IMG/VR virus record: IMGVR_UViG_3300025141_016046 | Span: 11,846 to 75,845 of that record | From: a virus | Direction: 5' to 3' (one strand) | DNA length: 64,000 bases | In this document: piece by piece, positions 38,013 to 64,000 of the stretch | Position numbering within the stretch: the stretch's first letter is position 1 | Layout: each line of letters begins with the position of its first letter | Made by a program: the position numbers and the translations under genes | Notes under the pieces: generated by a model | What the model saw: the letters and a program-made list of their open reading frames with translations, nothing else | Database searches by the model: none | What the model was told of the DNA's origin: nothing

Positions 38013-38306
38013 CTACTCTGATACAGCATTTTCATCAATTGATCCGAGAATATTGGCAACATGAAGAACAGACTCTCTAGTTTCCTTTATATCTCTAATA
38101 ACTTGCCTAATCTCAAGACTGTCAAAAAAAACAGGTGTTTCAAGAATGCTTGTCATTGAAGAGTATTTTTGATCTAGAACATCTAGAGACTCTTCAATAC
38201 CATCTTGCAATCTTAGTATCAGTGTGCCAAATTTATAATTATAATAAACTGACAGACATAATAACAAAGAAAGTGTAGTGGTAGAAGCAATCCAGGCCCA
38301 GGTCAA
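38013..38306 (-). CDS. Small membrane-anchored coiled-coil protein
   Basis: N-terminal hydrophobic helix WAWIASTTTLSLLLCLSVYY followed by a heptad-like tail. Confidence 0.55.
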   Translation of the reverse strand: MTWAWIASTTTLSLLLCLSVYYNYKFGTLILRLQDGIEESLDVLDQKYSSMTSILETPVFFDSLEIRQVIRDIKETRESVLHVANILGSIDENAVSE

Positions 38307-39469
38307 GATCTTCTCCAGTAGACTTCATCAATTAAAGCGTCATACTTCACACTGATTGCTCTTTGAGAAAATGTTTCTTTTAACTTACTAGAAAGGTCGG
38401 AAGCCCACTGCTCAGGCTTTTTATAATTATTTCTAAATTTTGTAACTTTCTTTTTAAAGTCATCCTCAACTGGATCAGCCCATCTAAATCCCTTAAGAAA
38501 GATTCTTCCATCAACTCTGCTCTCTGGAATTGTAACTAGGTCATAATTGACAGGTATAAATTTCCCTAGATTAAGAAAGTCTAAGTGTCCTGACCAATTT
38601 GTTGCAATGACTGGTATTTTTGCAGCAGACGCCTCTAAGAGTGGGAGTCCGAAGCCTTCGCCTCTAGTAAGACTTACAAGGCATTTTAGTGAATCTACTG
38701 CGTAAAGAGATGCAACTTCATCGCCAGTCATATTTCCATGAAGAAGGTGAACTCTGGGATACGGTCCTTTTCTGGCTTCTGCTATTACCTGGTTTATCTT
38801 TTGAAGTGTGATCTGTCTATCTATTCTTGTACCTCTCCCATGATTTGTCTTTATTATAATTCCTACATCTGGATCATCACTAAATGATTCAAATAGCCAC
38901 TTTAGTGTGAAAAGAAGATTTTTTCTATCATTGTACGGATCTCCTCCGGTAAATTGACCAAACACTAAAAAATTAAAATCAGTGTCTAGCTCAATGTCAA
39001 GAGGCATTGGATTTTCATCTATTTGCTCAATGTATGACTCAGGAACAACATGGACAGGTGTGGTAGGTGTTCCTGTTCTCATTATAGTATCTCTAATGTG
39101 CTCAGTTGGAACTATAACAGCATCCATGTCATTAATTCTAGATATCCATTCTGGATTGCACGTATCTGTTTCTACAAATGCACTTACGCCTATATTAAAT
39201 TCTGCAAGATTTGGATCCCACTCATCTGGTAGTTGAACTTGAAAAGATATGTCAGGTTTTCCCGGAGACGGAGAGGATTTATTCATTATATCACCGATCA
39301 ACCCTCCTTCCATTTCTGAATTGATCATCCATGAAGTATTTCCCCACTGGACAACCTGTGCAAATAAATTAAAATCTTTTCTAGTCAAGAGCCACTTGAA
39401 TATCTGCCTAGAGTGGGTTCCATACCCACTATAAGAAAGCAGCGGTGCTCTAATAATAACATTCTTCAT
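38303..39469 (-). CDS. Glycosyltransferase, GT-B fold (GT4-like)
   Basis: SGYGTHSR, RKN, GEGFGLPLLEA (EX7E motif), PVIATNWSGHLDF. Confidence 0.88.
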   Translation of the reverse strand: MKNVIIRAPLLSYSGYGTHSRQIFKWLLTRKDFNLFAQVVQWGNTSWMINSEMEGGLIGDIMNKSSPSPGKPDISFQVQLPDEWDPNLAEFNIGVSAFVETDTCNPEWISRINDMDAVIVPTEHIRDTIMRTGTPTTPVHVVPESYIEQIDENPMPLDIELDTDFNFLVFGQFTGGDPYNDRKNLLFTLKWLFESFSDDPDVGIIIKTNHGRGTRIDRQITLQKINQVIAEARKGPYPRVHLLHGNMTGDEVASLYAVDSLKCLVSLTRGEGFGLPLLEASAAKIPVIATNWSGHLDFLNLGKFIPVNYDLVTIPESRVDGRIFLKGFRWADPVEDDFKKKVTKFRNNYKKPEQWASDLSSKLKETFSQRAISVKYDALIDEVYWRRS

Positions 39470-39479
39470 TCAAAAATTC

Positions 39480-40727
39480 CTATAGGCTAAAAAATTCCCA
39501 AGCTTTATAATCATCTTTCCAATTTTCAGAAAGCTCTTCAAGTGTAGTGTGCCAGCCGTCTACTGTACTTTGTAGAGAAAAGCAATCCTTTGCGTAATCT
39601 ATACACTTCTTTCTAAGAGATAGCTTTTCATCTCTAGAGAGCTGAGAGATTTTAAGCAAACCTTCCGCTACTGTATCGCAAGAAACATAGTCTTCATAAA
39701 TGTATGGAACTTGCTGAGATCCTACTAGTGATCTGAATTCTACTGGAAGTGCGACTCCATTTTCCGAACCATCTCTATGATCAACAACCTGTCTTGTTAA
39801 ACCACCTGTCTTTACAGCGACAATAGGACAGCCTGTCATCATTCCTTCAAGTGTTGAGAGGCCAAATCCCTCTGCATAGCTAATATTGATACATGTGTCA
39901 GATATATTATAAAGCACATTTATTTTATCAAAGTCTAATCTCTCTGTAGAAAAATAGACATTATTTATTATTCCATGATGCTGACAGTTTTTAATTAGAT
40001 TGGGACCTTCCTGATCATATGGGTCTGTATGCATAAGAAGCGTTGCATTTCTATGCCCCTCTGTCGCTTCAAGCTTATCTAAAAAAACCTTCCAGGACTC
40101 TATGACATCAGAAGGTCTCTTTCTCTTGGCATTTCTATTAATCCATATTGCTACAAAGTGATCAATCCTTTCATCACCGAGAATTTGACGCTTATAGCTT
40201 AGCCTCTCTGTTGATGACATTGGAAAAAATACATTATCAGGAACAGCATGTGGAATAAAGTTAACTCTTCCGGGAACATTATCATTTATTAGTTCATATG
40301 TCATATGAGAGTGACAATTAATTAAGTCTGTAGATTCATATAGTACTTGATTAAACTCAGGATAGGGTTCATTATCCCAAACATGCCACCATGCGATTGG
40401 ACATATTTGATGAATTTCGTCTTCCATTTCAAAAAGCCAGATAAAAAATCTAGGATCAGTAAAGATCAAAAGAATATCTGGTTTTTCAGTAGCAAGCGCA
40501 AGTCTTAGGAGATTTCTATCTCCAAATCCATCAATTGGTTTAATAATAAAGTCTTCATTTACAACAACTGTCTCATAATCAGTGTGCTTTAGTGCAGCTC
40601 CAAACTGTCTAAAAGTCCAGTGATTCTTTTCTAACAATCCATTAACAAGGTGTCTAGTCTGTGTGCCGACACCAGAAGTTGAAAGTGCATGATCTGATAA
40701 GATCACCACCTTTTTCTTTTCTGCCAT
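39480..40727 (-). CDS. Glycosyltransferase, GT-B fold (GT4-like)
   Basis: SGVGTQTR, NRNAKRKR, AEGFGLSTLEG (EX7E motif), PIVAVKTGG. Confidence 0.88.
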   Translation of the reverse strand: MAEKKKVVILSDHALSTSGVGTQTRHLVNGLLEKNHWTFRQFGAALKHTDYETVVVNEDFIIKPIDGFGDRNLLRLALATEKPDILLIFTDPRFFIWLFEMEDEIHQICPIAWWHVWDNEPYPEFNQVLYESTDLINCHSHMTYELINDNVPGRVNFIPHAVPDNVFFPMSSTERLSYKRQILGDERIDHFVAIWINRNAKRKRPSDVIESWKVFLDKLEATEGHRNATLLMHTDPYDQEGPNLIKNCQHHGIINNVYFSTERLDFDKINVLYNISDTCINISYAEGFGLSTLEGMMTGCPIVAVKTGGLTRQVVDHRDGSENGVALPVEFRSLVGSQQVPYIYEDYVSCDTVAEGLLKISQLSRDEKLSLRKKCIDYAKDCFSLQSTVDGWHTTLEELSENWKDDYKAWEFFSL

Positions 40728-40735
40728 TGATCTAC

Positions 40736-40777
40736 TATCCTCAGTGAAATATTAACACTGAGATATTATAAAGTAAA
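40736..40777 (-). promoter_or_regulatory. Promoter overlapped by an inverted repeat that covers the SD of the GT4 gene
   Basis: Minus strand TTTACT-N17-(TGn)TAATAT. Perfect 7-bp inverted repeat CTCAGTG (40740-46) / CACTGAG (40756-62) with the -10 box in its loop. SD GAGGA at 40738-42. Confidence 0.55.
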
Positions 40778-41611
40778 TCACGTACAATGTTCTGTATTTT
40801 TAAATTGACAGTAAGTGCAGGAATCTCTATTTTTTAAAAACATTCCTCTGTATACAGAGGCTATCATGCTATTCATCATCTTGATACCCTTCTCTAGAGT
40901 CTTAGGTCCTACAGATACTGTTACAAGCTCACAGATGCGTCCTGGCTTACCCCCACGCTTTAATAGGATAAATCCACATCTTACGTCCTTAAGTGGCACA
41001 GAATGCTTTCTAGCCCAAAAGTGCTTATATAGAATAAGTTGCGCTGTCATTAGTAGACTTTGCTTTTTTTCTCTTCTCCAGCCATAGGATTGAGCTGTTT
41101 TCCAGTCTAAAATCCAGTAGTTATATCCCTCGTCCTTTTTCTTTGGAACCTTAATTACTGCATCAATAAATCCTTTAAACTTTACAGTCTTTCCCTCAAT
41201 CTCTTCATAGAGATATTCCTCAGCTTTTACAGGCTCCCAGTTAGGAAATGTGTCATCTAGAAAGCTAGGAACTTCATCCCACATATTTTCTGCCCACTGG
41301 CACCATGTCTCTACAGGCGCGTACTTATACCAACCAGGCTGTTTTTCAACCCACTCAGGATTATCAAATCCGTTCTTTTCCCATGCAGATGTTATGTCAT
41401 TAAAAAGCTTTTTCTTATCAACCTTTCTAGTCTCAAGAAGCGTTTCACAGCCTTCATGAACTGCTGTTCCAAAATCAAGATAGGGTGAAGGTTCAAAAGT
41501 GTCGATCTTGTCGATGTACATAAGCTTGTGTCGCCAGGAGCACTCCTTCCATATTTTCACTTCAGAAAATGAAATATGTGGCTTTCCTGTTGGAAAATTA
41601 TTTTCAGTCAT
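40778..41611 (-). CDS. PD-(D/E)XK nuclease, Cas4/AddB-like with Fe-S cysteines
   Basis: ISFSE..W.EC, GTAVH, GFIDAV, ILDWKT, QLILY and C-terminal CTYC......C (1+3 Cys staple). Confidence 0.85.
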   Translation of the reverse strand: MTENNFPTGKPHISFSEVKIWKECSWRHKLMYIDKIDTFEPSPYLDFGTAVHEGCETLLETRKVDKKKLFNDITSAWEKNGFDNPEWVEKQPGWYKYAPVETWCQWAENMWDEVPSFLDDTFPNWEPVKAEEYLYEEIEGKTVKFKGFIDAVIKVPKKKDEGYNYWILDWKTAQSYGWRREKKQSLLMTAQLILYKHFWARKHSVPLKDVRCGFILLKRGGKPGRICELVTVSVGPKTLEKGIKMMNSMIASVYRGMFLKNRDSCTYCQFKNTEHCT

Positions 41612-41616
41612 AATTC

Positions 41617-41646: not shown

Positions 41647-41655
41647 GGAGTTCTA

Positions 41656-42483
41656 ATGATTAGTGATGAAGAATACCAGGAAAGAATTCAAGATCTAAAT
41701 AATAAAGAGTTTAAAAACCTATATTTTATTCATATTCCTAAGGCAGCTGGGTCATATATAAAACAATTTCCAATCAAGTGGGGGCAAAGTCACGAGCAAT
41801 TTCACAGCTTTTCTCCAGTAGTCGGACCCTGGGGGACTACTGTTCCAGAGGAGCTTTTACTACCAAAGTCAGATCCCCAATTACTTCTTGAAAAAGGAGA
41901 AATAATATCTGGATACAAGAAGATAGAGCCGACCCAAATATCAAAAAAATTCTTAAAATTTGCAACTATTAGAAATCCGTTTGACTATCTAGTAAGTTGT
42001 TATTTTTCTAAAATGGTTGGAGTAGAATATGTCAATCTAGATGGGTGGCCGTTAAAGAAAGTTAGCACAGGGGACATAGAGGAATTCTTAATAAGCTTTT
42101 CAAAGAGTGAGAGAATGTACCTTCAATCTAGAAAAAATCTATTTCACCAAATATTCGACAATGAAGGAAGGTGTTGTGTAGATGTTCTAATTAGAGTAGA
42201 AAGAATAGATGAGGGACTCAGCCTTCTCAATAAAGAGGTATTTAGCAATAAGCTCAATATATCAAAAAAAGATCACAAAAATATTACGGGTGAAAGAGAG
42301 ATAAATGGTAAAAGACAAGGATATGAGAAATTCTATACAAGTAAAACTAAAAAAGAAATCAAGAAAAAAATTAAAAGAGAGCTTAGCATGTTCGAATACA
42401 GTTTCAAGGGTCCTACAAATAAAAGACCCCTTGTATTCTTAGATAGAAATAAAAAATACGATATTTTTAAGGATTTTAAATGA
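41656..42483 (+). CDS. Sulfotransferase family protein (Sulfotransfer_2-like), copy 1
   Basis: 5'-PSB loop FIHIPKAAGS and 3'-PB motif RNPFDYLVSCY. Confidence 0.82.
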   Translation: MISDEEYQERIQDLNNKEFKNLYFIHIPKAAGSYIKQFPIKWGQSHEQFHSFSPVVGPWGTTVPEELLLPKSDPQLLLEKGEIISGYKKIEPTQISKKFLKFATIRNPFDYLVSCYFSKMVGVEYVNLDGWPLKKVSTGDIEEFLISFSKSERMYLQSRKNLFHQIFDNEGRCCVDVLIRVERIDEGLSLLNKEVFSNKLNISKKDHKNITGEREINGKRQGYEKFYTSKTKKEIKKKIKRELSMFEYSFKGPTNKRPLVFLDRNKKYDIFKDFK

Positions 42484-43307
42484 TTAGTGATGAAGAATAC
42501 AAGAAAAGAATTCAAGATCTAAAAGATAAGAAATTTAAAAAGCTTTATTTTATTCATGTTCCAAAGGCAGCCGGATCTTACGTAAGAGAGTTTCCGATTC
42601 CAACTTCTGTTCACGGAAACCATGAGCAGTTTCACAACAATTCTTCATATAGCATCGGAAGGATAGTTGATGGAGCAATGCATTCAACAAGGCAGTTACT
42701 TGAAAGAGGTGACATAGTTACTGGATATTCAATGATAACTAAGGCCAAAAATAGCAATATAAGCCAAGATTCATTAAAGTTTGCAACTGTTAGAAATCCG
42801 TTTGACTACCTAATAAGTTGCTATTTTTCAGGAATGGTTGGTGCACCCGGTCAGACTATTAGATGCAATAATGATCATGGCAGCTATAAGACATACTGCG
42901 AGCACTGCAATGGTTTTGGATATGAAAGGTTCTTATCTGAATTCAGCAGAGGACGGATGTTATACGAACCTTGTAGAAAAAATCTATTTCATCAAGTATT
43001 TGACAATGAGGGACGCTGTGGTGTTGACCTGCTTATTAGATCAGAGTATGTTGCTGAGGGATTGCAGCAGCTAGGTAAGATAATATCTCTTAAAGATGAA
43101 GCTAAAAATATTCCAAAAGATCATGCAAATTCTTCTTCTAAAAGAATGAAAAGAGACTATAGAGAGTTCTACTCTCCCAAGATAAAAGATATGGTAGAGA
43201 GAAAGGTTAGAAACGAGCTTGATATGTTTGGTTACACTTTTGACGGACCAGTTGACAAAAGACCCTTTGTATTTCTAGATAGGGATAAAAGATATGATAT
43301 CTTCTAA
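42480..43307 (+). CDS. Sulfotransferase family protein, copy 2 (tandem paralog)
   Basis: FIHVPKAAGS and RNPFDYLISCY. Same length (275 aa) and same MISDEEY start as copy 1. Confidence 0.82.
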   Translation: MISDEEYKKRIQDLKDKKFKKLYFIHVPKAAGSYVREFPIPTSVHGNHEQFHNNSSYSIGRIVDGAMHSTRQLLERGDIVTGYSMITKAKNSNISQDSLKFATVRNPFDYLISCYFSGMVGAPGQTIRCNNDHGSYKTYCEHCNGFGYERFLSEFSRGRMLYEPCRKNLFHQVFDNEGRCGVDLLIRSEYVAEGLQQLGKIISLKDEAKNIPKDHANSSSKRMKRDYREFYSPKIKDMVERKVRNELDMFGYTFDGPVDKRPFVFLDRDKRYDIF

Positions 43308-44164
43308 TCTTCGCTAACTGCTCGACCTGCCATCTTCTCCCAGTCTCGTTCATTCTCATTCCTAACCTCTAGATTCTTTTCCCACACACATCGAAGAATT
43401 CTTGGATCAACGCTATTATTTTTTGCTACCTTGATAAGTGCATTTAAATCCTTTGGAAAGCAATGCCCGCCAAATCCCATGCTTCCGTCAGGACCTGGGA
43501 CTGACCAGTGTGACTTTCCAAGCCTCTCGTCATAAAGTGCATACTCAACAACCTTATCATAATCTATGCTGAGTGGTTCGCAGATCTGATTCATCTCATT
43601 AGAAAAAATAACCTTAGTGGCAAGGAAGCAATTAGTAAAATATTTGACCATTTCCGCTGTATTGGATCCTGTCTTAACGATAGGGGTTTGCTTAAATGCC
43701 TTTCTAAAGACATTCTTCACGACCGAGGTTCCCGGTCTCGGACCTCCAACTATTATTCTAGTCTGATTCTTAAAATCTTCTACTGCATTGGCTTCAGTTA
43801 AAAATTCAGGATTAAATACGACTTGTATGTTTGAAACTTTTTTATTTAAATATTCAGTTGTTCCCGGGGGAATTGTTGACTTAATGACTGCTACCTTGTT
43901 GTCTATTTCTTTACAAAGACTGTCAATCTCTAAAATAGTTTCTTCAACAATTCTTAGATCACAAGAACCGTCCTGTCTCATGGGTGTTGGAAGGCAGACA
44001 AATATAACGTCTACTTTTTCAACAAGAGGCGCTAACGAACTACAAGTAGATTTTTCGGATACAAACTTATCATATGTCTCAATGTTGAATGCATGCTTCA
44101 TTCCCTCATTTAGAGCTCCTCCAACAAATCCCTGTCCAACTATTCCAATTGTATTTATCATCAA
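43304..44164 (-). CDS. ugd: UDP-glucose/GDP-mannose 6-dehydrogenase family, short form
   Basis: GIVGQGFVG, CLPTP, IKSTIPPGTT, NPEFL, KYFTN and catalytic GFGGHCFPKD. Lacks the C-terminal UDP-binding domain. Confidence 0.85.
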   Translation of the reverse strand: MMINTIGIVGQGFVGGALNEGMKHAFNIETYDKFVSEKSTCSSLAPLVEKVDVIFVCLPTPMRQDGSCDLRIVEETILEIDSLCKEIDNKVAVIKSTIPPGTTEYLNKKVSNIQVVFNPEFLTEANAVEDFKNQTRIIVGGPRPGTSVVKNVFRKAFKQTPIVKTGSNTAEMVKYFTNCFLATKVIFSNEMNQICEPLSIDYDKVVEYALYDERLGKSHWSVPGPDGSMGFGGHCFPKDLNALIKVAKNNSVDPRILRCVWEKNLEVRNENERDWEKMAGRAVSED

Positions 44165-44165
44165 C

Positions 44166-44495
44166 CTATCCTTTGTATGCCCTTATAGCACATATCTTGC
44201 CATCGCTATTAAACTCAATGACGTCAACAACCCGCAATGCATCATCATTATTAATGTAGATCTCTATCTCAGATACAGTTAAATTTCCAGTTTCTGCAAT
44301 ATTGATTGGAACAATATTGATAGTGTCAAACATCTTAAACATTTTTTTATTTTCGTGAAGAACGTACGCAACGGGTCCAACATTAAGATCCCAATCTCTA
44401 AGCGTGATATCTTTAGAAAATAACTCCTTTAAACCGTCTGCATCCTTATTTGAAAAAGTATCAAAATACTTTAGTGTTAGCTCTTTTAAGTTCAT
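44166..44495 (-). CDS. SnoaL/NTF2-like small protein
   Basis: YFDTFSNKDADGLKELFS.D...VVDVIEFNSDGKI..IRAY pattern. Confidence 0.75.
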   Translation of the reverse strand: MNLKELTLKYFDTFSNKDADGLKELFSKDITLRDWDLNVGPVAYVLHENKKMFKMFDTINIVPINIAETGNLTVSEIEIYINNDDALRVVDVIEFNSDGKICAIRAYKG

Positions 44496-49339: not shown

Positions 49340-49340
49340 T

Positions 49341-54537: not shown

Positions 54538-54548
54538 ATTCACTGCTC

Positions 54549-58200: not shown

Positions 58201-58203
58201 TTT

Positions 58204-59784
58204 CTATCTCCTCTGACTCTTTTTTTTGGTTGATAGGAATAAATTATATTTTCCAAAATTAAATAAAAATCTGTCAAGAGGATAGTCATGAAGCGGAGAC
58301 ATGTTAATCCATATTATAGCTGTGAGCATATTAACCTTTCTTATATCGTATCCATTCTCCTCTATAAAGCAATGTAAAACCTCTCTACAGTCAATAAGAT
58401 TTTTTCTACACAAAATATCGCAGTAGACTCCTTCTTTTTCCTGTCGCAGCATGTAGTGATTTTGATTGACAAGCTCGTGATTAAAAATTAGATTATGATT
58501 TAATTTTGCTAAGTCATAATATGTATCACCTAAATCTAACCTACCTGCAAAATCCTGCCTCCAGTCTATAAGAGAAAATCCATCCTCTACTTCAATAATA
58601 TTATCAAGTATAAGGTCTCCATGAAAAATAGAAGCAACTCCATCACATAACCAGTTATCATCAATTTTTGAGAGCATTTCAGATACAGGCGGTATTTCTT
58701 CTCCATTAATAATCGACACACAGTCAGATGATCCATTTAAAAATTGAGATACTCTGTTTTTAGTTTTTTCAAAATAAAAGTCAAAGCAATGTGAAGATAT
58801 GTTTTCTGAAGATTTTTTATTCCACATGTTTTTTAATGCCCAATCTAAAAATAGCTTCATCTTAACAGGTGTAACTGAGTCTGCAAATAGGTTTCCATCA
58901 ACATACTTGTATTTAAAAAAATTATTAGAAGATGACTCTATTTCAGGTATAAGACCTTTTAAAAATTCTGCTCTTTTAACCCTCTTGCTAACATGACTAC
59001 TATTATGAAAAAACTTAATAACACTTTTATCAATAATGTAGATATTCTCTTGAACCTTATCCAAGACTTGAATTGAGGATTTAATCTCATCTCTTGCCCT
59101 GGCCAGAGAATAAGGCTCTCCTATATCGTGCCAGTCAGAGATCTTATCTATCTTAAATTCAATGCCATCACTATCAAGCATTGTCTGTATAACATGACAG
59201 TCTGAAAGATTTTTTACTTTATTTTCCTCAGCAGCATCAATGATCTCATCTAGGCGCTTCCAAAACACTTTGTAGTCTTTTATTCCTGCTCTTCCAGGAT
59301 AAGCAAGATCATACTTCATCTCTCCCTTGTCATTTATCTTTAAGAGCGTACATCCTGCTGACATGTTTATAGTTCGATATTGATCAGAAGACTCTGATTT
59401 AGCTCCTGATATCCAGTTTTCTGCTAGCGAAGGAGCATTATCAAATATAATAGAATCACAAACATGAAATATAAATGGGCACTGTAATTGATCCTTTGCA
59501 CTTCTCATTGAATGAAGGAGACTTGACTTTGGACCTTTATAGTTTTTTACTTCAATAAATGTAAAGTGAATATCTGGATATGATAGCTGCAAAAACTCTC
59601 TTACTTGATTGCCATAATGCCCTAGGGTTATAAAAAATTTTGCATTTCTGGGATAGCTATCAATAATGTATGAAAGTGCAGGCTTGTCACCTACTCTGAC
59701 CAGAGATTTATTTGTATAGTCTGTTAGGTCACCTAGCCTACTTCCAAGCCCGCTTGTTGTAATTAGTACACTAGGCTCTTCCAT
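58204..59784 (-). CDS. Sugar nucleotidyltransferase fused to an APH/choline-kinase-like phosphotransferase
   Basis: N-terminal SGLGSRL..LT...KSLV and WHDIG. C-terminal HGDLILDN, IDWR, YYDLAKL. Confidence 0.82.
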   Translation of the reverse strand: MEEPSVLITTSGLGSRLGDLTDYTNKSLVRVGDKPALSYIIDSYPRNAKFFITLGHYGNQVREFLQLSYPDIHFTFIEVKNYKGPKSSLLHSMRSAKDQLQCPFIFHVCDSIIFDNAPSLAENWISGAKSESSDQYRTINMSAGCTLLKINDKGEMKYDLAYPGRAGIKDYKVFWKRLDEIIDAAEENKVKNLSDCHVIQTMLDSDGIEFKIDKISDWHDIGEPYSLARARDEIKSSIQVLDKVQENIYIIDKSVIKFFHNSSHVSKRVKRAEFLKGLIPEIESSSNNFFKYKYVDGNLFADSVTPVKMKLFLDWALKNMWNKKSSENISSHCFDFYFEKTKNRVSQFLNGSSDCVSIINGEEIPPVSEMLSKIDDNWLCDGVASIFHGDLILDNIIEVEDGFSLIDWRQDFAGRLDLGDTYYDLAKLNHNLIFNHELVNQNHYMLRQEKEGVYCDILCRKNLIDCREVLHCFIEENGYDIRKVNMLTAIIWINMSPLHDYPLDRFLFNFGKYNLFLSTKKKSQRR

Positions 59785-60109
59785 AGTTATCTTTTAGACG
59801 AACTATATCATCTTCTCCAAAATAAGTTCCTGTTTGAATTTCAATAAATTCAAGAGGGTCATCTGTAGTATTTTTAATAGTGTGCTTGGCTTCTTTTGGA
59901 ATATATACGCTCTCTCCTGTTTTTAGAGTAAACACCTTATCGTCTAGACAGACCTCAGCTTCTCCAGAAGTAATAACCCAGTGCTCAGATCGCTTATAGT
60001 GATATTGATAGCTTGGACAGTGTCCAGGGTTTACTATTATTTTTTTAACCTTGCAACTAGGATCGTCTAGTAAGATTTCATAAGTTCCCCACGGGCGACT
60101 CTCTTTCAT
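59771..60109 (-). CDS. Mannose-6-phosphate isomerase type II cupin domain, stand-alone
   Basis: RPWG, SYQYHYKRSEHW, IEIQTG.YFGEDDIVR. Confidence 0.88.
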   Translation of the reverse strand: MKESRPWGTYEILLDDPSCKVKKIIVNPGHCPSYQYHYKRSEHWVITSGEAEVCLDDKVFTLKTGESVYIPKEAKHTIKNTTDDPLEFIEIQTGTYFGEDDIVRLKDNYGRA

Positions 60110-60110
60110 T

Positions 60111-61184
60111 TTATTTCTCCAGAATAATTTCTCTAATCTTTTCTGACAGTAAGTCAGAGTTTCTTTTTATATTAATTGCATCACAAGATCGATATGGGTT
60201 TGTAGGCGCATGATCATTTACTATAACTCTTTTACAGTGCATTAGATTAAAAATTATTTGATGATATTTTACACCGATTCTCTCTAGCTGACTTTTTGTC
60301 ACTTCTTTAAATGATTCATCTCTTGAAGTAGTAATAATAATTTGACACTTTCCAGTGTCGTATAGATCTCTAATCTTTTTAACATTTCTCTCTAATGGCT
60401 CGGTAGATCCCCACAGCCTTCCAAAGTACCTTCCAGAATTTTCCACAAGAACACCATCCATATCGATAAAAATGGTTGAAAATGATGATTTATACTCGTT
60501 CCAATCTCTAAGTGTTCCCCAGTCGATATATTGACTAGCCAGCTCCGTTCCAAACTCAATGCCATCGAGCATCATTGAGTATATCATGTGAGAAATATAA
60601 AGATCACTATGGTCTCTTAGCTTAAGAAATGATTCTTTAAAGATGTTTGCAGACTCAAATGAGTAACCGCCGGCGCAAAATTCTGAACTGATAACCTTCT
60701 TTTCAACTATTGACGTAATTATTCCATTATCATCTGTAACAACATAGCTCTTATTTCCAGCATTAACTGACTCCATTGAGCTAATATCATATGTTGTTAC
60801 AAAGTTTCCAGGTATCACATCACACTTAAAAAAATTATCAGAATCTTTAATAAAGATAGGTCCTTGAATATTTCTTTTTTCAATTACCTGAAATATTGTC
60901 TCAGGTTGATTCTTAGTTTCTTCTTCTAGAAGGACTATGTCTAGCTTTTTACAGACGCGATCTCCAAATGCATTAAAGAAGCATCGCTTAACGCCCTCAG
61001 AAAAGCAATACTGATCTTCGTGTTCCTGAAGTCCGACTACAAATATATTGCTAAAGCTATCTAGATCAAGTCCTGATATAGACTCTATGATCATAAGATT
61101 TCCTGATGGGTGTGTGAGGAGCCATTTTGGCCTCATTCCTGGATATCTTGATGACTTTCCTGCGACTGGTATGATAAGATTCAA
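60111..61184 (-). CDS. Sugar nucleotidyltransferase fused to an EcbF-like HAD phosphatase
   Basis: IPVAGKSSRY...PK, KDSD, IVEK, DWGT, then IDMDGVL, TTSR, VND. Confidence 0.82.
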   Translation of the reverse strand: MNLIIPVAGKSSRYPGMRPKWLLTHPSGNLMIIESISGLDLDSFSNIFVVGLQEHEDQYCFSEGVKRCFFNAFGDRVCKKLDIVLLEEETKNQPETIFQVIEKRNIQGPIFIKDSDNFFKCDVIPGNFVTTYDISSMESVNAGNKSYVVTDDNGIITSIVEKKVISSEFCAGGYSFESANIFKESFLKLRDHSDLYISHMIYSMMLDGIEFGTELASQYIDWGTLRDWNEYKSSFSTIFIDMDGVLVENSGRYFGRLWGSTEPLERNVKKIRDLYDTGKCQIIITTSRDESFKEVTKSQLERIGVKYHQIIFNLMHCKRVIVNDHAPTNPYRSCDAINIKRNSDLLSEKIREIILEK

Positions 61185-62050
61185 TGTTTCTCCAGTATTA
61201 GCTGATCTATATTTTTAACTACTTGTGCTATAACGTTCTTATTACTACAATACTGCAAAAGTCTTAATAAGTTCATTATTTGAAATGATTGATAGAAATA
61301 TTTGTAAAAATCATATTTCATAAAATGATTATCAATTTTTTTATCAATGTAATCGAAAATTATTGATATTTTTGTCAAATCTATAGGAAGGGGATAAAGA
61401 TTTAGTGACCACATATACTTTGTGTCCTGTCTAATTTTAACCATATCTTGAACTGGAGACTCTAGAAATGTATCAAGAAAATCTATTAGACACACCTTTT
61501 TACTTTTTCTTCTAACAAGAATATTTGACAGTGTTAGATCGCCGTGGCAAAATCCCATTGGAATGTCTCTCTCATCGAGAGAAAAGAATATTTCATCTAT
61601 TTTAGAGAATCTATTCTTAATATCCCAATAGAGTTCAGAGTTTTTAAGATTTTCTTTTACAGATGAGTATTTTGATAAAAATATTTCTTTTTGAAATTTA
61701 GAAAAGCTGGCTTCTAATATGCTATTATCAATAAACCCTAATATTGAAGAAATTAAAAATTCAATTTCCTTAATTGAACATCTATGAATAAACGTAATGC
61801 AGTCCAAAGATCTACAAAAATCCATCTCAAAATAACAGATATCTTTATCAAATGAGAAATTTCTATCAATAATTTTTGGAATTTCTATAAACTTTAGATT
61901 ATTTTTTTGAAATGCAATATCTTGTTTTTTGCACTGGTTTTCTAATCTGTGGTAGTAGGATTGATCTGAAGAAGATTTTTTAACTATCTTTTTTGATAGT
62001 GAATCCTTAATCTCAACACTGCAACCTGAATTTCCTCGAATTATTATCAT
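61181..62050 (-). CDS. APH-like phosphotransferase (sugar kinase candidate)
   Basis: GNSG, VKKSS, CHGDLTLSN, LIDF, DMVKIRQD. Confidence 0.8.
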   Translation of the reverse strand: MIIIRGNSGCSVEIKDSLSKKIVKKSSSDQSYYHRLENQCKKQDIAFQKNNLKFIEIPKIIDRNFSFDKDICYFEMDFCRSLDCITFIHRCSIKEIEFLISSILGFIDNSILEASFSKFQKEIFLSKYSSVKENLKNSELYWDIKNRFSKIDEIFFSLDERDIPMGFCHGDLTLSNILVRRKSKKVCLIDFLDTFLESPVQDMVKIRQDTKYMWSLNLYPLPIDLTKISIIFDYIDKKIDNHFMKYDFYKYFYQSFQIMNLLRLLQYCSNKNVIAQVVKNIDQLILEKH

Positions 62051-62053
62051 AAG

Positions 62054-62764
62054 TCATTTCATGCTCAAGTATTTCTTTAAATCTTCTGGTGTGCCGAGTC
62101 CATGCATTTTATCTACAAAAAATGGAACTAGTGTTTTTTCATCTAAAATTAATTCATTATATACAGGTGCAATATAAAATTCATTATTAACTCTTATATC
62201 TTTCTTTATCATGTCTTCTGCGTATTTGACAAAATCGCATCCATTCCTATAGTAATAAATTCCACAAGTAGCTATATCAGATATTGGATTTTTTTCTGCA
62301 ACCTCAGTTACAACTCCTCTTGAATTAGTCTTAACAAAGCTCCACTTTGGATGAACAGCTCTAAATGTAAAAACAGATGCATCAAAATTAGTAAATCTTC
62401 TAATTGTATTAAAATTATCTTTTGAATATTCTACAATCTGATCTGAATTTGCTATTAGAAGTTCTTCTTTATTGTTGATTAGTCTTTTTGCTAATAGTGC
62501 AGTACAAGCTGCACCCTCTGTAAGGCTTTCAACAGTTACAATATCATATCTTCCGTTTGTTACAAAATTTAGAACTGACTCTATATTGTACTCGCTAAGA
62601 TGATTGGATCTCACCAAAAATATGTAATTTGCATCAAAGTCAAGATTTTCAACAACACACTGTATCATTGGCTTTCCATTGACTTCAATCAGCGGCTTTG
62701 GAAATGTGTATCCTTCTTTTTTAAATCTGCTACCCTCTCCTGCCATTGGTATTAAAATATTCAT
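62054..62764 (-). CDS. Sugar nucleotidyltransferase (BcbE-like / dTDP-glucose pyrophosphorylase-like)
   Basis: IPMAGEGSRF....PKPLI, TEGAACT, NSDQ, VAEK, NNEFYIAPVYN, LGTPEDL. Confidence 0.85.
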   Translation of the reverse strand: MNILIPMAGEGSRFKKEGYTFPKPLIEVNGKPMIQCVVENLDFDANYIFLVRSNHLSEYNIESVLNFVTNGRYDIVTVESLTEGAACTALLAKRLINNKEELLIANSDQIVEYSKDNFNTIRRFTNFDASVFTFRAVHPKWSFVKTNSRGVVTEVAEKNPISDIATCGIYYYRNGCDFVKYAEDMIKKDIRVNNEFYIAPVYNELILDEKTLVPFFVDKMHGLGTPEDLKKYLSMK

Positions 62765-63378
62765 TTTAAAAACTCCTCAAATATTTCTAAAGTTACATGG
62801 TCTGCATTTAAAACACCAATCACCTTGCAGCCTGATAAGATAGCAGCCTCTATTCCCTTTGGAGAATCCTCAACAATTATAGCATCATTTGCAGGTATAT
62901 TAAAGCAAGAAAGTATTTTTAAATACCCTTCTGGATCTGGTTTGGCATTTTTAACATCTTGATTTGTAACTATCATATCAAGTAAATCAAATACACCGGA
63001 AGTCTTTAGCATTAAATCTGCAGTCTCTCTTATACTATTTGTAAAGCAGCAAACCTTTAACCCTTTTTCTTTTAGATGGTTTATCATTTCTATTTTTTCA
63101 TTACGAATCTTTGATTGCTTTCTAATAATGTTTTTAGTAATTTTCTGCTTTAATCTATAAACTTCTTCATGCTGGCTAGCATCTATTTTTCCTAAAGCTG
63201 TTAACTTTTTAAGCTTCACTTTTGTTGGTATTCCATTGAATATTTGCATATGATCATCAAGAGATATTTCATAATTGCAAACTTTTTTTAGTGCCTTGTT
63301 TAAGGCAACCCTGTGCCACTCACACGCATCAACCAAGACACCATCAAGATCAAAAATTATTAGCTTTAAATTCTTCAT
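62761..63378 (-). CDS. HAD-family phosphatase (beta-PGM-like, cap C1)
   Basis: FDLDGVL, TNS, KPDPEGY, VEDSPKG. Confidence 0.88.
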   Translation of the reverse strand: MKNLKLIIFDLDGVLVDACEWHRVALNKALKKVCNYEISLDDHMQIFNGIPTKVKLKKLTALGKIDASQHEEVYRLKQKITKNIIRKQSKIRNEKIEMINHLKEKGLKVCCFTNSIRETADLMLKTSGVFDLLDMIVTNQDVKNAKPDPEGYLKILSCFNIPANDAIIVEDSPKGIEAAILSGCKVIGVLNADHVTLEIFEEFLK

Positions 63379-63835
63379 AATATTTCTCTATATTGTCACT
63401 ACAAATGCCATTGCACTTTCTAATCAATTTCCACTGATAGTTTGTCTCTTCTGGCATTACAATAATTGATCCATAACATGGTCGCTTACCTGGGTATACC
63501 CAAATGTATCCTTTGCTAGTTATCGTGTAATCATCTTCCTGGTGCCAGAATACATTCCACGATATTGTTGAATTTAGAAACCATCTTAGCGCTGCTACGT
63601 TTTTAGCATGAAGCCATATCTTATCTTTTCTATTGATAAGCCATTTCAGGCTAACTTCATGTTCTGGATTGTCATGGCCGAGATAAAAGTTTCCAGGGGG
63701 AACGTACCCACATGTTAGCCTTATGTCAACCTCTACATCGAATTCTTTATTGATTGCTTCATCAATATAATCAGGAGAGTTTTCTCTTTTTGGATTACGA
63801 CCCTCTAAGTTTCCCCTGTGTGATATAAACTTCAT
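63350..63835 (-). CDS. Short glycerophosphodiester phosphodiesterase / PLC-like barrel protein
   Basis: ISHRGN...EN, DVEVDI, LGHD, WLHAKN, FWHQED, GICSD. Confidence 0.7.
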   Translation of the reverse strand: MKFISHRGNLEGRNPKRENSPDYIDEAINKEFDVEVDIRLTCGYVPPGNFYLGHDNPEHEVSLKWLINRKDKIWLHAKNVAALRWFLNSTISWNVFWHQEDDYTITSKGYIWVYPGKRPCYGSIIVMPEETNYQWKLIRKCNGICSDNIEKYYEEFKANNF

Positions 63836-63999
63836 AGTGATCTCACAACATCTAAATACTGATCAGCGCACCTTCTCCAAGAATTAATCTGTAAGCTATT
63901 ATTGACATAACTCCTGGATCTAATAATCCTAAATAATTGATCCATATTCTCAAATGTGTGATCTTTTCCTGCAAATTCAACTGCTCCCCCTCCCCTTGC
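63832..63999 (-). CDS. C-terminal fragment of a probable GT4 glycosyltransferase, truncated by the window edge
   Basis: Hand translation ARGGGAVEFAG...SWRRCADQYLDVVRSL*. The GG..E and SW...A..Y motifs end GT-B proteins. Its TGA overlaps the next ATG. Confidence 0.6.
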   Translation of the reverse strand, partial: ARGGGAVEFAGKDHTFENMDQLFRIIRSRSYVNNSLQINSWRRCADQYLDVVRSL

Positions 64000-64000
64000 G

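What the first reader, a model, noticed from the sequence alone, without database searches (positions are those of the whole stretch)
38303..64000. Phage-encoded glycan factory (>25 kb) beside the baseplate genes: candidate virion glyco-coat system
Seen: about 30 contiguous genes, including about 8 glycosyltransferase candidates (GT4, GT2, GT-B), 3 sulfotransferases, 4 SAM methyltransferases, NeuB+NeuA, Ugd, a deacetylase-like enzyme and several nucleotide-sugar enzymes. They share the tight gene packing of the gp6/gp25/spike/sigma genes. No Wzx/Wzy/Wza, Kps or ABC exporter, or undecaprenyl-phosphate transferase is visible, and the enzymes look soluble. Known: cellular capsule/O-antigen loci normally carry export or initiation genes, and some viruses glycosylate their own virions in the cytoplasm. 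Inference: the phage builds a complex anionic (sulfated, methylated, nonulosonate- and uronate-containing) glycan directly on a cytoplasmic acceptor, most simply virion proteins. Alternatives are phage DNA or remodelling of the host surface.
Basis: partly seen in the sequence, partly recalled or inferred. Interest (0 to 1): 0.85.

Follow-up and report, generated by a model that had tools for sequence, protein, structure and literature searches.

The report
Hypervariable sugar-chain island, marine jumbo phage
A fragment of an uncultured marine giant phage carries at least 25.7 kb (32 genes) of membrane-free enzymes that make, join, sulfate and methylate sugars, joined to its baseplate genes. 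Related phages keep the ends of this block but swap its middle. It probably sugar-coats the phage's own tail proteins, but what the sugars attach to has not been shown.

Summary
Window 38303-64000 is one gene-dense block on an unmistakable phage contig (terminase, portal, major head protein, gp25 and gp6). It holds 4 Pfam-supported glycosyltransferases, a cut GT4 at the contig end, one GT-B-fold protein, 3 sulfotransferases, 3 firm methyltransferases, NeuB, a short NeuA, sugar-activation modules and 8 unknowns. No gene has a membrane segment.

It is not a chimera or a captured host locus. Five independent contigs share the junction with the baseplate genes. In three relatives the whole 30-37 kb island lies between a PhoH-like gene and the baseplate genes, with no initiating transferase, flippase, polymerase or exporter.

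The ends are conserved and the centre is swapped between relatives. A PD-(D/E)XK nuclease plus a GT4 pair is also present in two cultured phages, Flavobacterium phage immuto and Microcystis phage Mel-JY01. The pair is predicted to form a heterodimer, and its closest solved relative is a chlorovirus GT4. Published LC-MS of immuto DNA shows no glycosylated nucleoside.

An [ST]GS motif is enriched and conserved in distal baseplate and fibre proteins of these lineages, but not in T4.

Virion glycosylation is my best reading (about 0.45), and the acceptor is unproven. This scan has already reported the same kind of island on other phage DNA.

The parts
63835..64000 (-). 3' end of a GT4 glycosyltransferase gene cut by the contig end. 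In G001 the gene is 297 aa and is preceded by GDP-mannose 4,6-dehydratase, more GT4 and GT2 genes and a 644-aa two-domain transferase.
   Evidence: tblastn: 53 aa, 87% identical to residues 245-297 of G001 5808-6701, E 3e-32. Pfam on the G001 genes.
62054..63835 (-). Conserved sugar-activation trio: a 161-aa unknown (63350-63835), a beta-phosphoglucomutase-family HAD (62761-63378) and a sugar-1-phosphate nucleotidylyltransferase (62054-62764).
   Evidence: Pfam and NCBIfam. Found together in 73-80 of 80 viral contigs fetched. 38-56% identical to genes of T4-like cyanophages such as S-CAM9.
58204..62050 (-). Second and third activation modules: a choline/APH-type kinase (61181-62050), a 357-aa protein with a weak HAD match (60111-61184), a ManC-type cupin (59771-60109), and a 526-aa fusion of a nucleotidyltransferase and an APH-like kinase (58204-59784).
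   Evidence: Pfam and NCBIfam, several hits below cut-off. The 526-aa protein is absent from G001 and present in G002.
55300..58200 (-). Four proteins of unknown family (338, 125, 243 and 271 aa), part of the variable centre.
   Evidence: No Pfam or NCBIfam family. Patchy presence in relatives.
51457..55313 (-). Tailoring block: sulfotransferase (54549-55313), Methyltransf_24 (53854-54561), GT2 (53033-53857), Methyltransf_23 (52215-53036), Methyltransf_24 (51457-52230).
   Evidence: Pfam. Orthologs at 40-69% identity in G001.
50336..51457 (-). GT-B-fold protein of the UDP-GlcNAc 2-epimerase / TagF type. It is either a NeuC analogue or a CMP/CDP-dependent transferase.
   Evidence: AlphaFold2 mean pLDDT 91.5. 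VIA-align Z 22.1 (rmsd 3.5, 319 aa) to N. meningitidis UDP-GlcNAc 2-epimerase 6vlb, TagF Z 20.5, NeuC 5zlr Z 20.1. Atlas leads to polysialyltransferase and TagF families. No Pfam or PDB sequence hit.
47323..50354 (-). Three conserved unknowns: 337 aa and 286 aa (Pol-beta-type 'GS...D.D' motif; only a weak CdnD match) and 392 aa (His/Asp-rich, strongly conserved).
   Evidence: No family or PDB hit at a useful E-value. Present in G001 and G003.
44492..47326 (-). Nonulosonate core: a short CMP-sugar synthetase (46748-47326), a doubtful methyltransferase-like ORF (46192-46758), GT2 (45531-46217) and NeuB-family synthase (44492-45544).
   Evidence: Pfam. NCBIfam: NeuB 325 bits against a cut-off of 400, PseI 259 against 340, PseF 98 against 206. 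More than 100 environmental homologs of NeuB at 51-89% identity on contigs up to 245 kb.
43304..44495 (-). SnoaL-like protein (44166-44495, absent from G001) and a short NDP-sugar-dehydrogenase-like protein (43304-44164). The latter is a conserved flank gene of the island.
   Evidence: Pfam and NCBIfam. Alignment of 15 homologs: GxGxxG and GGxCxPKD invariant, no C-terminal domain in any. Present in all five loci compared.
41656..43307 (+). Two tandem sulfotransferase paralogs on the opposite strand, an insertion absent from G001, G003 and G004.
   Evidence: Pfam Sulfotransfer_2. Synteny.
40778..41611 (-). PD-(D/E)XK nuclease, always next to the GT4 pair.
   Evidence: Pfam 1e-19. Same neighbourhood in G001-G004, immuto and Mel-JY01.
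38303..40727 (-). Core pair of GT4 glycosyltransferases (415 aa and 388 aa), both with an EX7E motif, adjacent in every relative found. Predicted heterodimer.
   Evidence: Pfam. Alignments of 21 and 23 homologs. Best PDB sequence match is chlorovirus NY-2A B736L, E 1e-15 and 2e-6. Complex prediction ipSAE 0.81, best of 3 controls 0.00. About 30% identical orthologs in immuto, Mel-JY01, LR756508 and RM378.
30296..38306 (-). Baseplate module directly downstream: 97, 246, 133 and 463-aa proteins, a hydrophobic 427-aa protein, gp25-like (33680-34153), gp6-like (31843-33675) and a 513-aa protein.
   Evidence: PHROGs. Synteny in five loci and in Mel-JY01.
5320..30296 (-). Distal baseplate and fibre proteins, candidate acceptors. 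They carry ConA-like lectin domains and conserved [ST]GS motifs. The 990-aa protein (16937-19909) has a Ser/Thr-rich N-terminal 420 aa.
   Evidence: Pfam Laminin_G_3. Motif counts against shuffles, e.g. 14 observed vs 2.0 expected in 26568-30296. Contexts. Conservation. Composition.

Best explanation
The block is the baseplate-proximal three quarters of a 30-37 kb, phage-owned glycan island that a large clade of aquatic jumbo myoviruses carries. A vertically inherited core recurs in relatives: a PD-(D/E)XK nuclease and a heterodimeric pair of retaining GT4 transferases, plus (in relatives, beyond this contig's end) a two-domain GT-B+GT-A transferase. This core brackets a cassette region that is exchanged between phages. 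In this phage the cassettes make several activated sugars inside the infected cell: a CMP-nonulosonate from NeuB and NeuA, and NDP-sugars from kinase, mutase and nucleotidyltransferase modules. They then assemble those sugars with soluble GT2 and GT4 enzymes and decorate the product with methyl and sulfate groups. There is no lipid-carrier initiation, flipping, polymerisation or export step, so I infer that the chain is built directly on a cytoplasmic acceptor, most likely exposed distal baseplate and fibre proteins. That would give each phage strain its own anionic glycan coat.

Shown: gene content, solubility, contiguity, conserved-flank/variable-centre architecture, and predicted GT4 pairing.

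Inferred: the acceptor, the timing, and the glycan's composition.
For: (1) All enzymes are soluble here and in G001-G004; no coding-strand ORF has two or more hydrophobic segments.
(2) The island is bounded by phage genes on both sides in G002, G003 and G004: a PhoH-like gene and the baseplate genes.
(3) The flanks are conserved and the centre is swapped. G004 carries Glf, a PseB-like dehydratase, a DegT aminotransferase, a formyltransferase and an RmlD-like reductase where this phage carries NeuB, sulfotransferases and methyltransferases.
(4) The GT4 pair is about 30% identical in phages of Flavobacterium, Microcystis and Rhodothermus, the same divergence as gp6. This suggests inheritance with the virion genes, across hosts with unlike envelopes.
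(5) The closest solved relative of both GT4s is the chlorovirus GT4 B736L. Chloroviruses glycosylate their capsid with their own cytoplasmic enzymes (PMC9614988).
(6) The GT4 pair is predicted to bind: ipSAE 0.81, best of 3 controls 0.00. That mark was reached by 58 of 80 solved complexes and 2 of 110 mismatched pairs. The runs agree in at least 96% of contacts, and the partner's pLDDT is at least 91.
(7) The island is co-oriented and near-gapless with the baseplate operon.
(8) [ST]GS is 3-7 times enriched in distal baseplate and fibre proteins here, in L003 and L005, in Mel-JY01 and in immuto. It is not enriched in gp6, gp25 or the enzymes, nor in any of 16 ORFs of 300 aa or more, mostly virion proteins, of T4 (2 sites in all). 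79-100% of the sites are retained in orthologs, against 24-55% background triplet identity.
(9) Immuto DNA has no glycosylated base (PMC10516641).
(10) Precedent: mycobacteriophage virion glycosylation, as cited in PMC12619734.
Against: There is no chemical or proteomic evidence for any acceptor. No known protein-glycosylating family was detected. The acceptor of B736L is itself unknown. In Mel-JY01 the core lies among replication genes, away from the baseplate, so adjacency to virion genes is not universal. The [ST]GS motif could be a structural feature of one protein lineage: the three phage groups that show it are related, so they are not independent, and only one outgroup was tested. Soluble GTs are also normal in host O-antigen and capsule loci, and homologous cyanophage clusters are usually read as host-surface modifiers (PMC12801897). 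A two-domain GT, a dehydrogenase and sulfotransferases would also fit synthesis of a free polysaccharide.
Confidence: 0.45

Rival explanations
1. Host-surface remodelling. The phage enzymes act at the inner face of the membrane on host undecaprenyl-phosphate-linked intermediates, and the host's own initiating transferase, flippase or ABC exporter and ligase move the altered glycan to the cell surface. This could block superinfection or change grazing and adsorption.
For: Most GTs of bacterial O-antigen and capsule loci are also soluble or peripheral. The activation trio is shared with T4-like cyanophages, whose sugar clusters are conventionally read as cell-surface modifiers (PMC12801897). Serotype-like variation of the centre is what host-surface loci show.
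Against: None of four islands carries a single membrane component. Host Wzy polymerases and many flippases are selective for their own repeat unit (established knowledge), so 30 or more foreign genes would depend on an unmatched host exporter. The core GT4 pair is conserved across phages of Cyanobacteria, Bacteroidota and Rhodothermus, whose envelopes differ. The island is fused to late structural genes.
Confidence: 0.3
2. Another cytoplasmic product: a free or lipid-anchored acidic polysaccharide released at lysis, or a dedicated non-virion phage carrier protein.
For: The 644-aa protein of relatives has a GT-B domain (Z about 20) fused to a GT-A domain. Two-domain transferases include soluble glycosaminoglycan polymerases such as K4CP and heparosan synthase 2, which are among its matches. 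Sulfotransferases and a dehydrogenase-like gene are present.
Against: No precedent in phages. The dehydrogenase lacks its substrate domain. The top fold matches of the GT-A domain also include peptide and protein transferases (SunS, pp-GalNAc-T). Strong diversifying variation suggests an exposed, selected structure.
Confidence: 0.15
3. Hypermodification of phage DNA with glycans.
For: Phage GTs are known to glycosylate DNA (cited in PMC12619734). A PD-(D/E)XK nuclease always accompanies the GT4 pair, and in Mel-JY01 the core sits near replication genes.
Against: The cultured relative immuto has the same nuclease-GT4-GT4 core and an 11-kb glycan cluster. Its virion DNA gave only dA, dC, dT and fdPreQ1 by LC-UV-MS/MS (PMC10516641). 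Sulfation, methylation and nonulosonate synthesis on this scale have no parallel in DNA modification.
Confidence: 0.04
4. Artefact: an assembly chimera, or a host capsule locus recently captured by the phage.
For: G+C is slightly lower in the island (0.32-0.37) than in the structural genes (0.34-0.43).
Against: The junction is reproduced in contigs from several metagenomes. Strand bias and gene packing are continuous. Both flanks are phage genes in relatives. NeuB and the 373-aa protein have large families of environmental homologs on long phage-like contigs rather than close bacterial relatives.
Confidence: 0.02

Closest known systems
Virion glycosylation of mycobacteriophages (Che8, Corndog, Myrna type; Freeman et al. 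2023, known to me and cited in PMC12619734)
   Same: Phage-encoded soluble glycosyltransferases that modify the phage's own structural proteins in the cytoplasm. Weak GT4 similarity to actinophage GTs (24-25% identity, E 1e-5).
   Different: Those systems have 2-4 GT genes and use host sugars. This one has 30 or more genes with its own sugar synthesis, sulfation and methylation, and a swap-able centre. Glycosylation is shown there by mass spectrometry; here it is not shown.
Autonomous glycosylation machinery of chloroviruses and other giant viruses (PBCV-1 A064R etc.; NY-2A B736L, PDB 3OY2; PMC9614988)
   Same: Virus-encoded, cytoplasmic, membrane-free GTs with methyltransferases and sugar-nucleotide enzymes. 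B736L is the best solved sequence match of both core GT4s.
   Different: Those are eukaryotic viruses with no tail. The acceptor of B736L is unknown. Identity is low, and no homology was seen for the rest of the island.
LPS / 'cell wall synthesis and modification' gene clusters of large T4-like cyanomyoviruses (P-SSM2, S-SCSM1, S-SCSM2R with 22 genes and 13 GTs, PMC12801897; S-CAM9 cluster)
   Same: Islands of GTs, epimerases, nucleotidyltransferases, HAD and carbamoyltransferase genes in marine myoviruses. The nucleotidyltransferase/HAD/161-aa trio is 38-56% identical. Their function is also untested.
   Different: Those clusters are smaller and lie in hypervariable AMG regions near psbA and hli rather than fused to the baseplate genes. 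The GT4 pair was not found in them. No nonulosonate or sulfation module is reported for them.
Glycan clusters of the cultured relatives Flavobacterium phage immuto (NC_055915, 48-60 kb) and Microcystis phage Mel-JY01 (PP395634, 81-90 kb)
   Same: The same PD-(D/E)XK nuclease - GT4 - GT4 core in the same order, followed by GT2, methyltransferase and amino-sugar genes. Homologous baseplate module.
   Different: Much smaller (about 8-11 kb or more), not adjacent to the baseplate genes, and with different sugar chemistry. They are annotated only as generic glycosyltransferases.
'Moraphages', aquatic jumbo phages with four core glycosyltransferase orthogroups (PMC12619734)
   Same: Aquatic jumbo phages of 200-307 kb, GTs in the core genome, DnaK in some (G004 has HSP70), and Rhodothermus phage RM378 as a reference relative.
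   Different: Membership could not be tested because no moraphage sequences were at hand. The paper does not describe an island, its variable centre or its content.
Bacterial capsule / O-antigen loci
   Same: Conserved flanks with a variable centre. NDP-sugar synthesis, GTs and tailoring enzymes.
   Different: The island lacks every membrane step: initiating phosphoglycosyl transferase, Wzx, Wzy, ABC transporter, Wza, ligase.

Membership tests
Bacterial Wzx/Wzy- or ABC-transporter-dependent polysaccharide locus | Initiating polyprenyl-phosphate glycosyl-phosphate transferase (WbaP/WecA type, polytopic) | tested here: not met
   No Pfam hit of that kind in 31 ORFs. No ORF with a hydrophobic 19-mer above threshold in the island. 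None with two or more in four relatives' islands.
Bacterial Wzx/Wzy- or ABC-transporter-dependent polysaccharide locus | Flippase, polymerase or ABC permease and outer-membrane export proteins | tested here: not met
   Same scans. In G002-G004 the island ends at a PhoH-like phage gene and at the baseplate genes. The window itself is cut at its far end.
Bacterial Wzx/Wzy- or ABC-transporter-dependent polysaccharide locus | Nucleotide-sugar synthesis genes with glycosyltransferases and tailoring enzymes, conserved flanks and variable centre | tested here: met
Phage virion-glycosylation system (mycobacteriophage type) | Phage-encoded soluble glycosyltransferases | tested here: met
Phage virion-glycosylation system (mycobacteriophage type) | Glycans covalently attached to virion structural proteins | not testable with these tools
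   This needs mass spectrometry or glycan staining of virions. The only indirect lead is the [ST]GS enrichment and conservation.
Nonulosonic acid (sialic/legionaminic/pseudaminic/Kdn) pathway | NeuB-family condensing synthase | tested here: met
   Pfam NeuB 4e-73 plus SAF domain. It is below the NeuB_NnaB and PseI equivalog cut-offs, so the sugar is unassigned.
Nonulosonic acid (sialic/legionaminic/pseudaminic/Kdn) pathway | CMP-nonulosonate synthetase | tested here: inconclusive
   CTP_transf_3 2e-27, but only profile positions 1-118 of 217 in a 192-aa protein. PseF 98 bits against a cut-off of 206.
Nonulosonic acid (sialic/legionaminic/pseudaminic/Kdn) pathway | Precursor enzyme (NeuC-type hydrolysing 2-epimerase, or the Pse/Leg dehydratase-aminotransferase set) | tested here: inconclusive
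   50336-51457 has the 2-epimerase/TagF GT-B fold: Z 22.1 to 6vlb, 20.1 to NeuC 5zlr, 20.5 to TagF, which are ties. No sequence-family hit. No Pse/Leg enzymes in the window.
UDP-glucose / NDP-sugar 6-dehydrogenase (Ugd) | Three domains: NAD-binding, central, and C-terminal UDP-sugar-binding | tested here: not met
   Only the N-terminal and central domains match. 15 homologs all end after the central domain. The catalytic Cys motif is retained.
Chlorovirus B736L/A546L-like GT4 | Full-length sequence similarity and the retaining GT4 EX7E motif | tested here: met
   415-aa protein: E 1e-15 over residues 6-314 against 2-312 of 3OY2. 388-aa protein: E 2e-6. E286...E294 and E271...E279 are invariant or nearly invariant. 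The function of B736L is itself unknown.
T-even-type DNA glycosylation | Glycosylated bases in virion DNA | not testable with these tools
   No DNA chemistry exists for this phage. In the cultured relative immuto, which has the homologous core, published LC-MS found none (PMC10516641).
T-even-type DNA glycosylation | Base hydroxymethylase that supplies the attachment site | not tested
   The contig is an incomplete fragment, so absence would not be informative. G001, a relative of about 70% identity, is 37% complete by CheckV.
Moraphage lineage (PMC12619734) | Clustering with moraphage MCP, TerL and PolB; genome of 200-307 kb; core GT orthogroups; DnaK/DnaJ | tested here: inconclusive
   Relatives are 236-267 kb at 70-78% completeness, and G004 has HSP70. 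No moraphage sequences were available for a tree.

The most novel reading that the evidence does not exclude
A whole clade of aquatic jumbo phages has 'serotypes'. A conserved heterodimeric GT4 enzyme starts O-glycosylation at [ST]GS sites on exposed distal baseplate and fibre proteins. A 20-25 kb exchangeable cassette region then builds a strain-specific anionic glycan on them (nonulosonate, sulfated, methylated here; galactofuranose and formylated amino sugar in a relative). This would give the virion a variable glycocalyx that is under the same kind of diversifying selection as bacterial O-antigens.
Probability: 0.3. Interest if true: 0.85.

Novelty: new variant of a known kind. Interest (0 to 1): 0.68.

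Why it matters
Phage-encoded sugar genes are usually small sets, read either as DNA protection or as host-surface tinkering. Virion glycosylation is proven only for a few actinophages with 2-4 transferases. Here the island is 30-37 kb and holds 30-40 genes. It is self-sufficient and free of membrane components, and it has conserved ends and a swap-able centre. Parts of it recur in more than a hundred viral contigs from many aquatic metagenomes.

If it coats the particle, phage surfaces would carry complex, strain-specific, negatively charged glycans. That would affect adsorption, aggregation, grazing, and recognition by hosts and by animal immune systems. It would also add a large unexplored reservoir of soluble glycosyltransferases, sulfotransferases and rare-sugar pathways.

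The idea can be tested now, because two cultured phages (immuto and Mel-JY01) carry the conserved core.

Tried and rejected
- Megablast of the island against 50,697 phage records found no match.
- The 644-aa protein of relatives has no tblastn match in cultured phages.
- PHROGs and Pfam gave nothing for most large structural proteins or for 8 island ORFs.
- PDB sequence-profile searches for the 392-, 286-, 337- and 373-aa families gave only chance-level hits; the best was CdnD, E 0.11, over the Pol-beta motif.
- Atlas look-ups gave leads only: polysialyltransferase or TagF for the 373-aa protein, DUF3863 at 0.85 for the 392-aa protein.
- The 526-aa kinase-nucleotidyltransferase fusion is not in G001.
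Contiguity therefore rests on independent contigs.
- Sequencing-run search: no RNA holder listed, so nothing can be said on expression.
- Literature searches for 'jumbo phage' with 'nonulosonic', and for 'Mel-JY01', found nothing. Searches on sulfotransferase or NeuB in phages gave nothing relevant.
- I considered the hydrophobic 427-aa protein (34194-35477) as a hidden polymerase or ligase. I rejected it: it has no family hit, it is helical and Leu/Ile-rich, it lies inside the baseplate module, and it is poorly conserved.
- I considered whether [ST]GS tracks the big island specifically. It does not: it is equally enriched in Mel-JY01 and immuto, which have only the small core cluster. At most it tracks the conserved GT4 pair.
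- The WATATTTA motif noted by another reader occurs once inside the island (43847) and before gp25 (34171). I could not use it to date expression.

Full report
WHAT THE DNA IS

The window is bases 11846-75845 of a 75,845-bp linear virus contig, so its right end is the contig end. The 11.8 kb before the window encode the large terminase, portal, prohead protease and major head protein. The window begins with SbcC-like, primase and RuvC-like genes. A 25-kb run of large proteins follows, three of them with ConA-like lectin domains. Then come a gp6-like baseplate wedge protein (31843-33675) and a gp25-like protein (33680-34153). Almost everything is on the minus strand, with uniform negative GC skew. 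The gp6-like protein is about 30% identical to those of Microcystis phage Mel-JY01, Flavobacterium phage immuto and a 484-kb uncultured phage. Mel-JY01 shows the same order: gp25, gp6, large proteins, primase, SbcC-like ATPase. Near relatives are IMG/VR contigs of 125-267 kb that CheckV rates 37-78% complete, so this is a fragment of a jumbo myovirus. The DNA is held by marine and seawater metagenome runs.

CHECK OF THE OBSERVATION

From 38303 to 63835 there are 31 ORFs. The last 165 nt of the window encode the C-terminal 53 residues of a further GT4, 87% identical to a G001 gene. Family models support the following:
- two GT4 and two GT2 transferases;
- three Sulfotransfer_2 proteins, two of them a tandem pair on the plus strand;
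- three SAM methyltransferases, plus one ORF with only sub-threshold hits;
- a NeuB-family synthase with a SAF domain, and a short cytidylyltransferase;
- a SnoaL-like protein;
- two sugar-1-phosphate nucleotidyltransferase domains, one fused to an APH-like kinase;
- a choline/APH-type kinase, a beta-phosphoglucomutase-family HAD, a second weak HAD and a ManC-type cupin.

One gene is a PD-(D/E)XK nuclease. Eight ORFs have no family. No ORF in the block reaches the hydropathy threshold for a membrane helix. From 63835 down to 43304, 22 genes overlap or abut with no gap above 3 nt.

- 'About 8' GTs is 4 firm, one cut GT4 and one GT-B-fold protein.
- 'Ugd' is a conserved short form without the C-terminal UDP-sugar domain, though its GxGxxG and catalytic-Cys motifs are invariant in 15 homologs.
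- NeuB and NeuA fall below every equivalog cut-off.
- 'Deacetylase-like' has no support.

CHIMERA OR CAPTURED HOST LOCUS?

It is neither. L002 (8.8 kb), L003, L005/G001 and L006 carry the GT4 genes next to the same baseplate genes at 50-96% identity. So do G002, G003 and G004.

G001 is collinear with the window through the island. It lacks the two plus-strand sulfotransferases, the SnoaL gene, the doubtful methyltransferase and the 56-60 kb block. In their place it has a carbamoyltransferase and other genes. Beyond the point where this window ends, G001 continues with a GT4, GDP-mannose 4,6-dehydratase, two GT4, a GT2 and a 644-aa protein.

In G002 (50 kb), G003 (236 kb) and G004 (267 kb) the whole island can be read. 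It runs from a PhoH-like gene and the 644-aa protein to the GT4 pair and the baseplate genes, spanning 29-37 kb. No coding-strand ORF in any of them has two or more hydrophobic segments. The export or polymerase genes that would have marked a captured capsule locus are therefore absent where the sequence exists.

ARCHITECTURE

Clustering the genes of the five loci shows conserved ends. On the baseplate side these are the short dehydrogenase-like protein, the PD-(D/E)XK nuclease, the 415-aa GT4 and the 388-aa GT4. On the far side they are the 644-aa protein, a GT2 and GT4s.

The centre differs. G004 has 15 genes with no counterpart here, including UDP-galactopyranose mutase, a PseB-type dehydratase, a DegT aminotransferase, a formyltransferase and an RmlD-like reductase. 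That is a different sugar chemistry in the same slot.

Parts of the island are very widespread. The 644-aa protein has 124 confirmed relatives and the 236-aa nucleotidyltransferase has 193 in IMG/VR, many on contigs of 100-320 kb. The trio of 161-aa protein, HAD and nucleotidyltransferase co-occurs in 73-80 of the 80 loci fetched. It is 38-56% identical to genes of T4-like cyanophages such as S-CAM9, where it sits in a smaller GT cluster. NeuB and the 373-aa protein have large families of unnamed environmental homologs on long contigs. They are not recent captures from a host.

THE CONSERVED CORE

The two GT4 genes are adjacent in every relative found, down to about 30% identity, and both keep an EX7E motif. 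The order nuclease, GT4, GT4 recurs in two cultured phages:
- In immuto it is followed by GT2, aminotransferases, a methyltransferase, a mannosyltransferase, an acetyltransferase-like 'pilin glycosylation protein', an epimerase and another GT.
- In Mel-JY01 it is followed by GT-A, a methyltransferase and GT2, and it lies among replication genes rather than next to the baseplate.

The pair's divergence between these phages (29-34%) equals that of gp6 (29-31%). This suggests vertical inheritance across phages whose hosts belong to different phyla.

The best solved sequence relative of both proteins is the chlorovirus NY-2A GT4 B736L: E 1e-15 over nearly the full length, and E 2e-6. A review describes B736L as a GDP-mannose-binding GT-B enzyme of unknown acceptor, from a virus family that glycosylates its capsid with its own cytoplasmic enzymes (PMC9614988).

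A complex prediction supports binding of the pair. The ipSAE score is 0.81 (median of three runs) and the best of 3 controls is 0.00. That mark was reached by 58 of 80 solved complexes and 2 of 110 mismatched pairs. The runs agree in at least 96% of contacts, and the partner's pLDDT is at least 91. The C-terminal residues 409-415 of the 415-aa protein pack against residues 239-247 of the 388-aa protein. This is a model's confidence, not a measurement, and my own alignments were used.

OTHER PROTEINS

The 373-aa protein next to the NeuA/NeuB genes folds with mean pLDDT 91.5 into the UDP-GlcNAc 2-epimerase / TagF type of GT-B fold. VIA-align gives Z 22.1 to the N. meningitidis UDP-GlcNAc 2-epimerase (6vlb), 20.5 to TagF and 20.1 to NeuC; these are ties. 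It may supply the missing NeuC step, or it may be a CMP/CDP-dependent transferase.

The 644-aa protein of relatives (pLDDT 91.7) is a compact GT-B domain (residues 19-310, Z about 20 to GT4 enzymes) fused to a GT-A domain. The nearest folds of that GT-A domain include the peptide S-glycosyltransferases SunS and ThuS, the polymerases K4CP and heparosan synthase 2, and the polypeptide GalNAc-transferases.

WHAT IS THE ACCEPTOR?

DNA is unlikely. Immuto carries the homologous core and a glycan cluster, yet published LC-UV-MS/MS of its DNA found dA, dC and dT, with dG fully replaced by fdPreQ1 (PMC10516641).

For proteins there is one sequence lead, first raised by another first-stage note. [ST]GS is strongly over-represented in some virion proteins: 14 observed against 2.0 expected in 26568-30296, 7 against 1.2 in 5320-8232, and 8 against 2.5 in 21505-25614. 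It is not over-represented in gp6, gp25, the enzymes, or the Ser-rich 990-, 676- and 1511-aa proteins. The motif is usually followed by a hydrophobic residue.

I found the same enrichment in the orthologs of L003 and L005, in Mel-JY01 (11 against 1.3; 9 against 0.6) and in immuto (26 against 5.7 in a tail-spike protein). It is absent from all 16 ORFs of 300 aa or more, mostly virion proteins, in T4 85-125 kb, which hold 2 sites in all. The sites are retained in orthologs far more often than background: 79-100% against 24-55%.

The motif is therefore selected, and it co-occurs with the conserved GT4 pair rather than with the large island. However, the three groups are one clade and only one outgroup was tested. 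It may be a structural motif of these proteins.

The 990-aa protein has a 420-residue N-terminal region with 25-40% Ser+Thr. It is another possible acceptor.

WEIGHING THE READINGS

Evidence that points to a phage-intrinsic cytoplasmic acceptor, with virion proteins the simplest candidate (0.45):
- there is no membrane step in four islands;
- phage genes lie on both flanks;
- the island is fused to the baseplate operon;
- the core is inherited across unlike hosts;
- the core's nearest solved relative is a chlorovirus enzyme;
- the centre varies like a serotype locus;
- the [ST]GS motif is conserved.

Host-surface remodelling through host initiation and export remains a serious rival (0.3). Soluble GTs are normal in such pathways, and the cyanophage homologs are read that way (PMC12801897). 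A free polysaccharide or another carrier gets 0.15, DNA 0.04, and artefact or capture 0.02.

COMPARISON WITH WHAT IS KNOWN

Known systems are mycobacteriophage virion glycosylation (2-4 GTs), giant-virus glycosylation machineries, cyanophage sugar clusters (at most 22 genes and 13 GTs, called the highest number in a marine phage in PMC12801897), and the note that moraphages have four core GT orthogroups (PMC12619734). I found no paper that describes an island of this size, its conserved-flank/variable-centre structure, or nonulosonate and sulfation modules in a phage. I therefore class it as a new variant of a known kind.

Earlier reports of this same scan, on other phage genomes, describe the same type of island and reach the same open question about the acceptor. 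This window is one more, incomplete, example.
- the argument against DNA as the acceptor, from published immuto chemistry;
- the cultured relatives that carry the core;
- the predicted GT4 heterodimer;
- the 2-epimerase-like fold next to NeuB;
- the finding that the [ST]GS motif follows the core pair across three lineages and is conserved site by site.

Noticed in passing
window 43304-44164 (-): A family of short (about 285-330 aa) NDP-sugar-dehydrogenase-like proteins keeps the NAD-binding GxGxxG and the catalytic GGxCxPKD motif but has no C-terminal UDP-sugar-binding domain. It is a conserved flank gene of the island in all five loci compared, and its substrate is unknown.
   Followed up: partly
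window 40778-41611 (-); L179 7804-8745; L178 5376-6272: A PD-(D/E)XK nuclease sits immediately before the GT4 pair in this phage, its relatives, immuto and Mel-JY01. It is not known whether this is a functional link or only old synteny.
   Followed up: partly
window 34194-35477 (-): A 427-aa helical, Leu/Ile-rich protein with about five hydrophobic segments lies between the 463-aa protein and gp25. It has no family and is only 30-39% identical in relatives whose neighbours are 70-85% identical. It may be a tape-measure-like or membrane-inserting tail component.
   Followed up: no
window 16937-19909 (-): The first 420 residues of this 990-aa virion-region protein are 25-40% Ser+Thr and look disordered, yet it has no [ST]GS sites. 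It is a possible mucin-like fibre.
   Followed up: no
window 41656-43307 (+): Two tandem sulfotransferase paralogs are inserted on the opposite strand between the dehydrogenase-like gene and the nuclease. They are absent from G001, G003 and G004, which gives a clear cassette gain.
   Followed up: partly
L007 420-2351 (G001) and 124 other viral contigs: A 644-aa two-domain transferase (compact GT-B plus GT-A) marks the far end of the island. It is 51-79% identical across contigs of up to 322 kb from many metagenomes, and it has no match in cultured phages.
   Followed up: partly
window 62054-63835 (-); L169 11341-14501: The nucleotidyltransferase, beta-PGM-like HAD and 161-aa unknown travel together and are shared with T4-like cyanophages (S-CAM9, S-PRM1, B3/B23 and others). 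In S-CAM9 the HAD and nucleotidyltransferase are fused.
   Followed up: partly
window 5320-8232, 21505-25614, 26568-30296 (-): Three large distal baseplate or fibre proteins carry ConA-like lectin (Laminin_G_3) domains. These same proteins have the most [ST]GS sites.
   Followed up: partly
L001 2-1948 (-) (contig bases before the window): The major head protein ORF is cut by the contig start. The head-protein match begins only at residue 372, so there is a long N-terminal part of unknown nature.
   Followed up: no
G004 contig 226126-227901: A relative of this phage encodes a full-length HSP70/DnaK (800 bits). This trait is reported for the 'moraphage' lineage.
   Followed up: no
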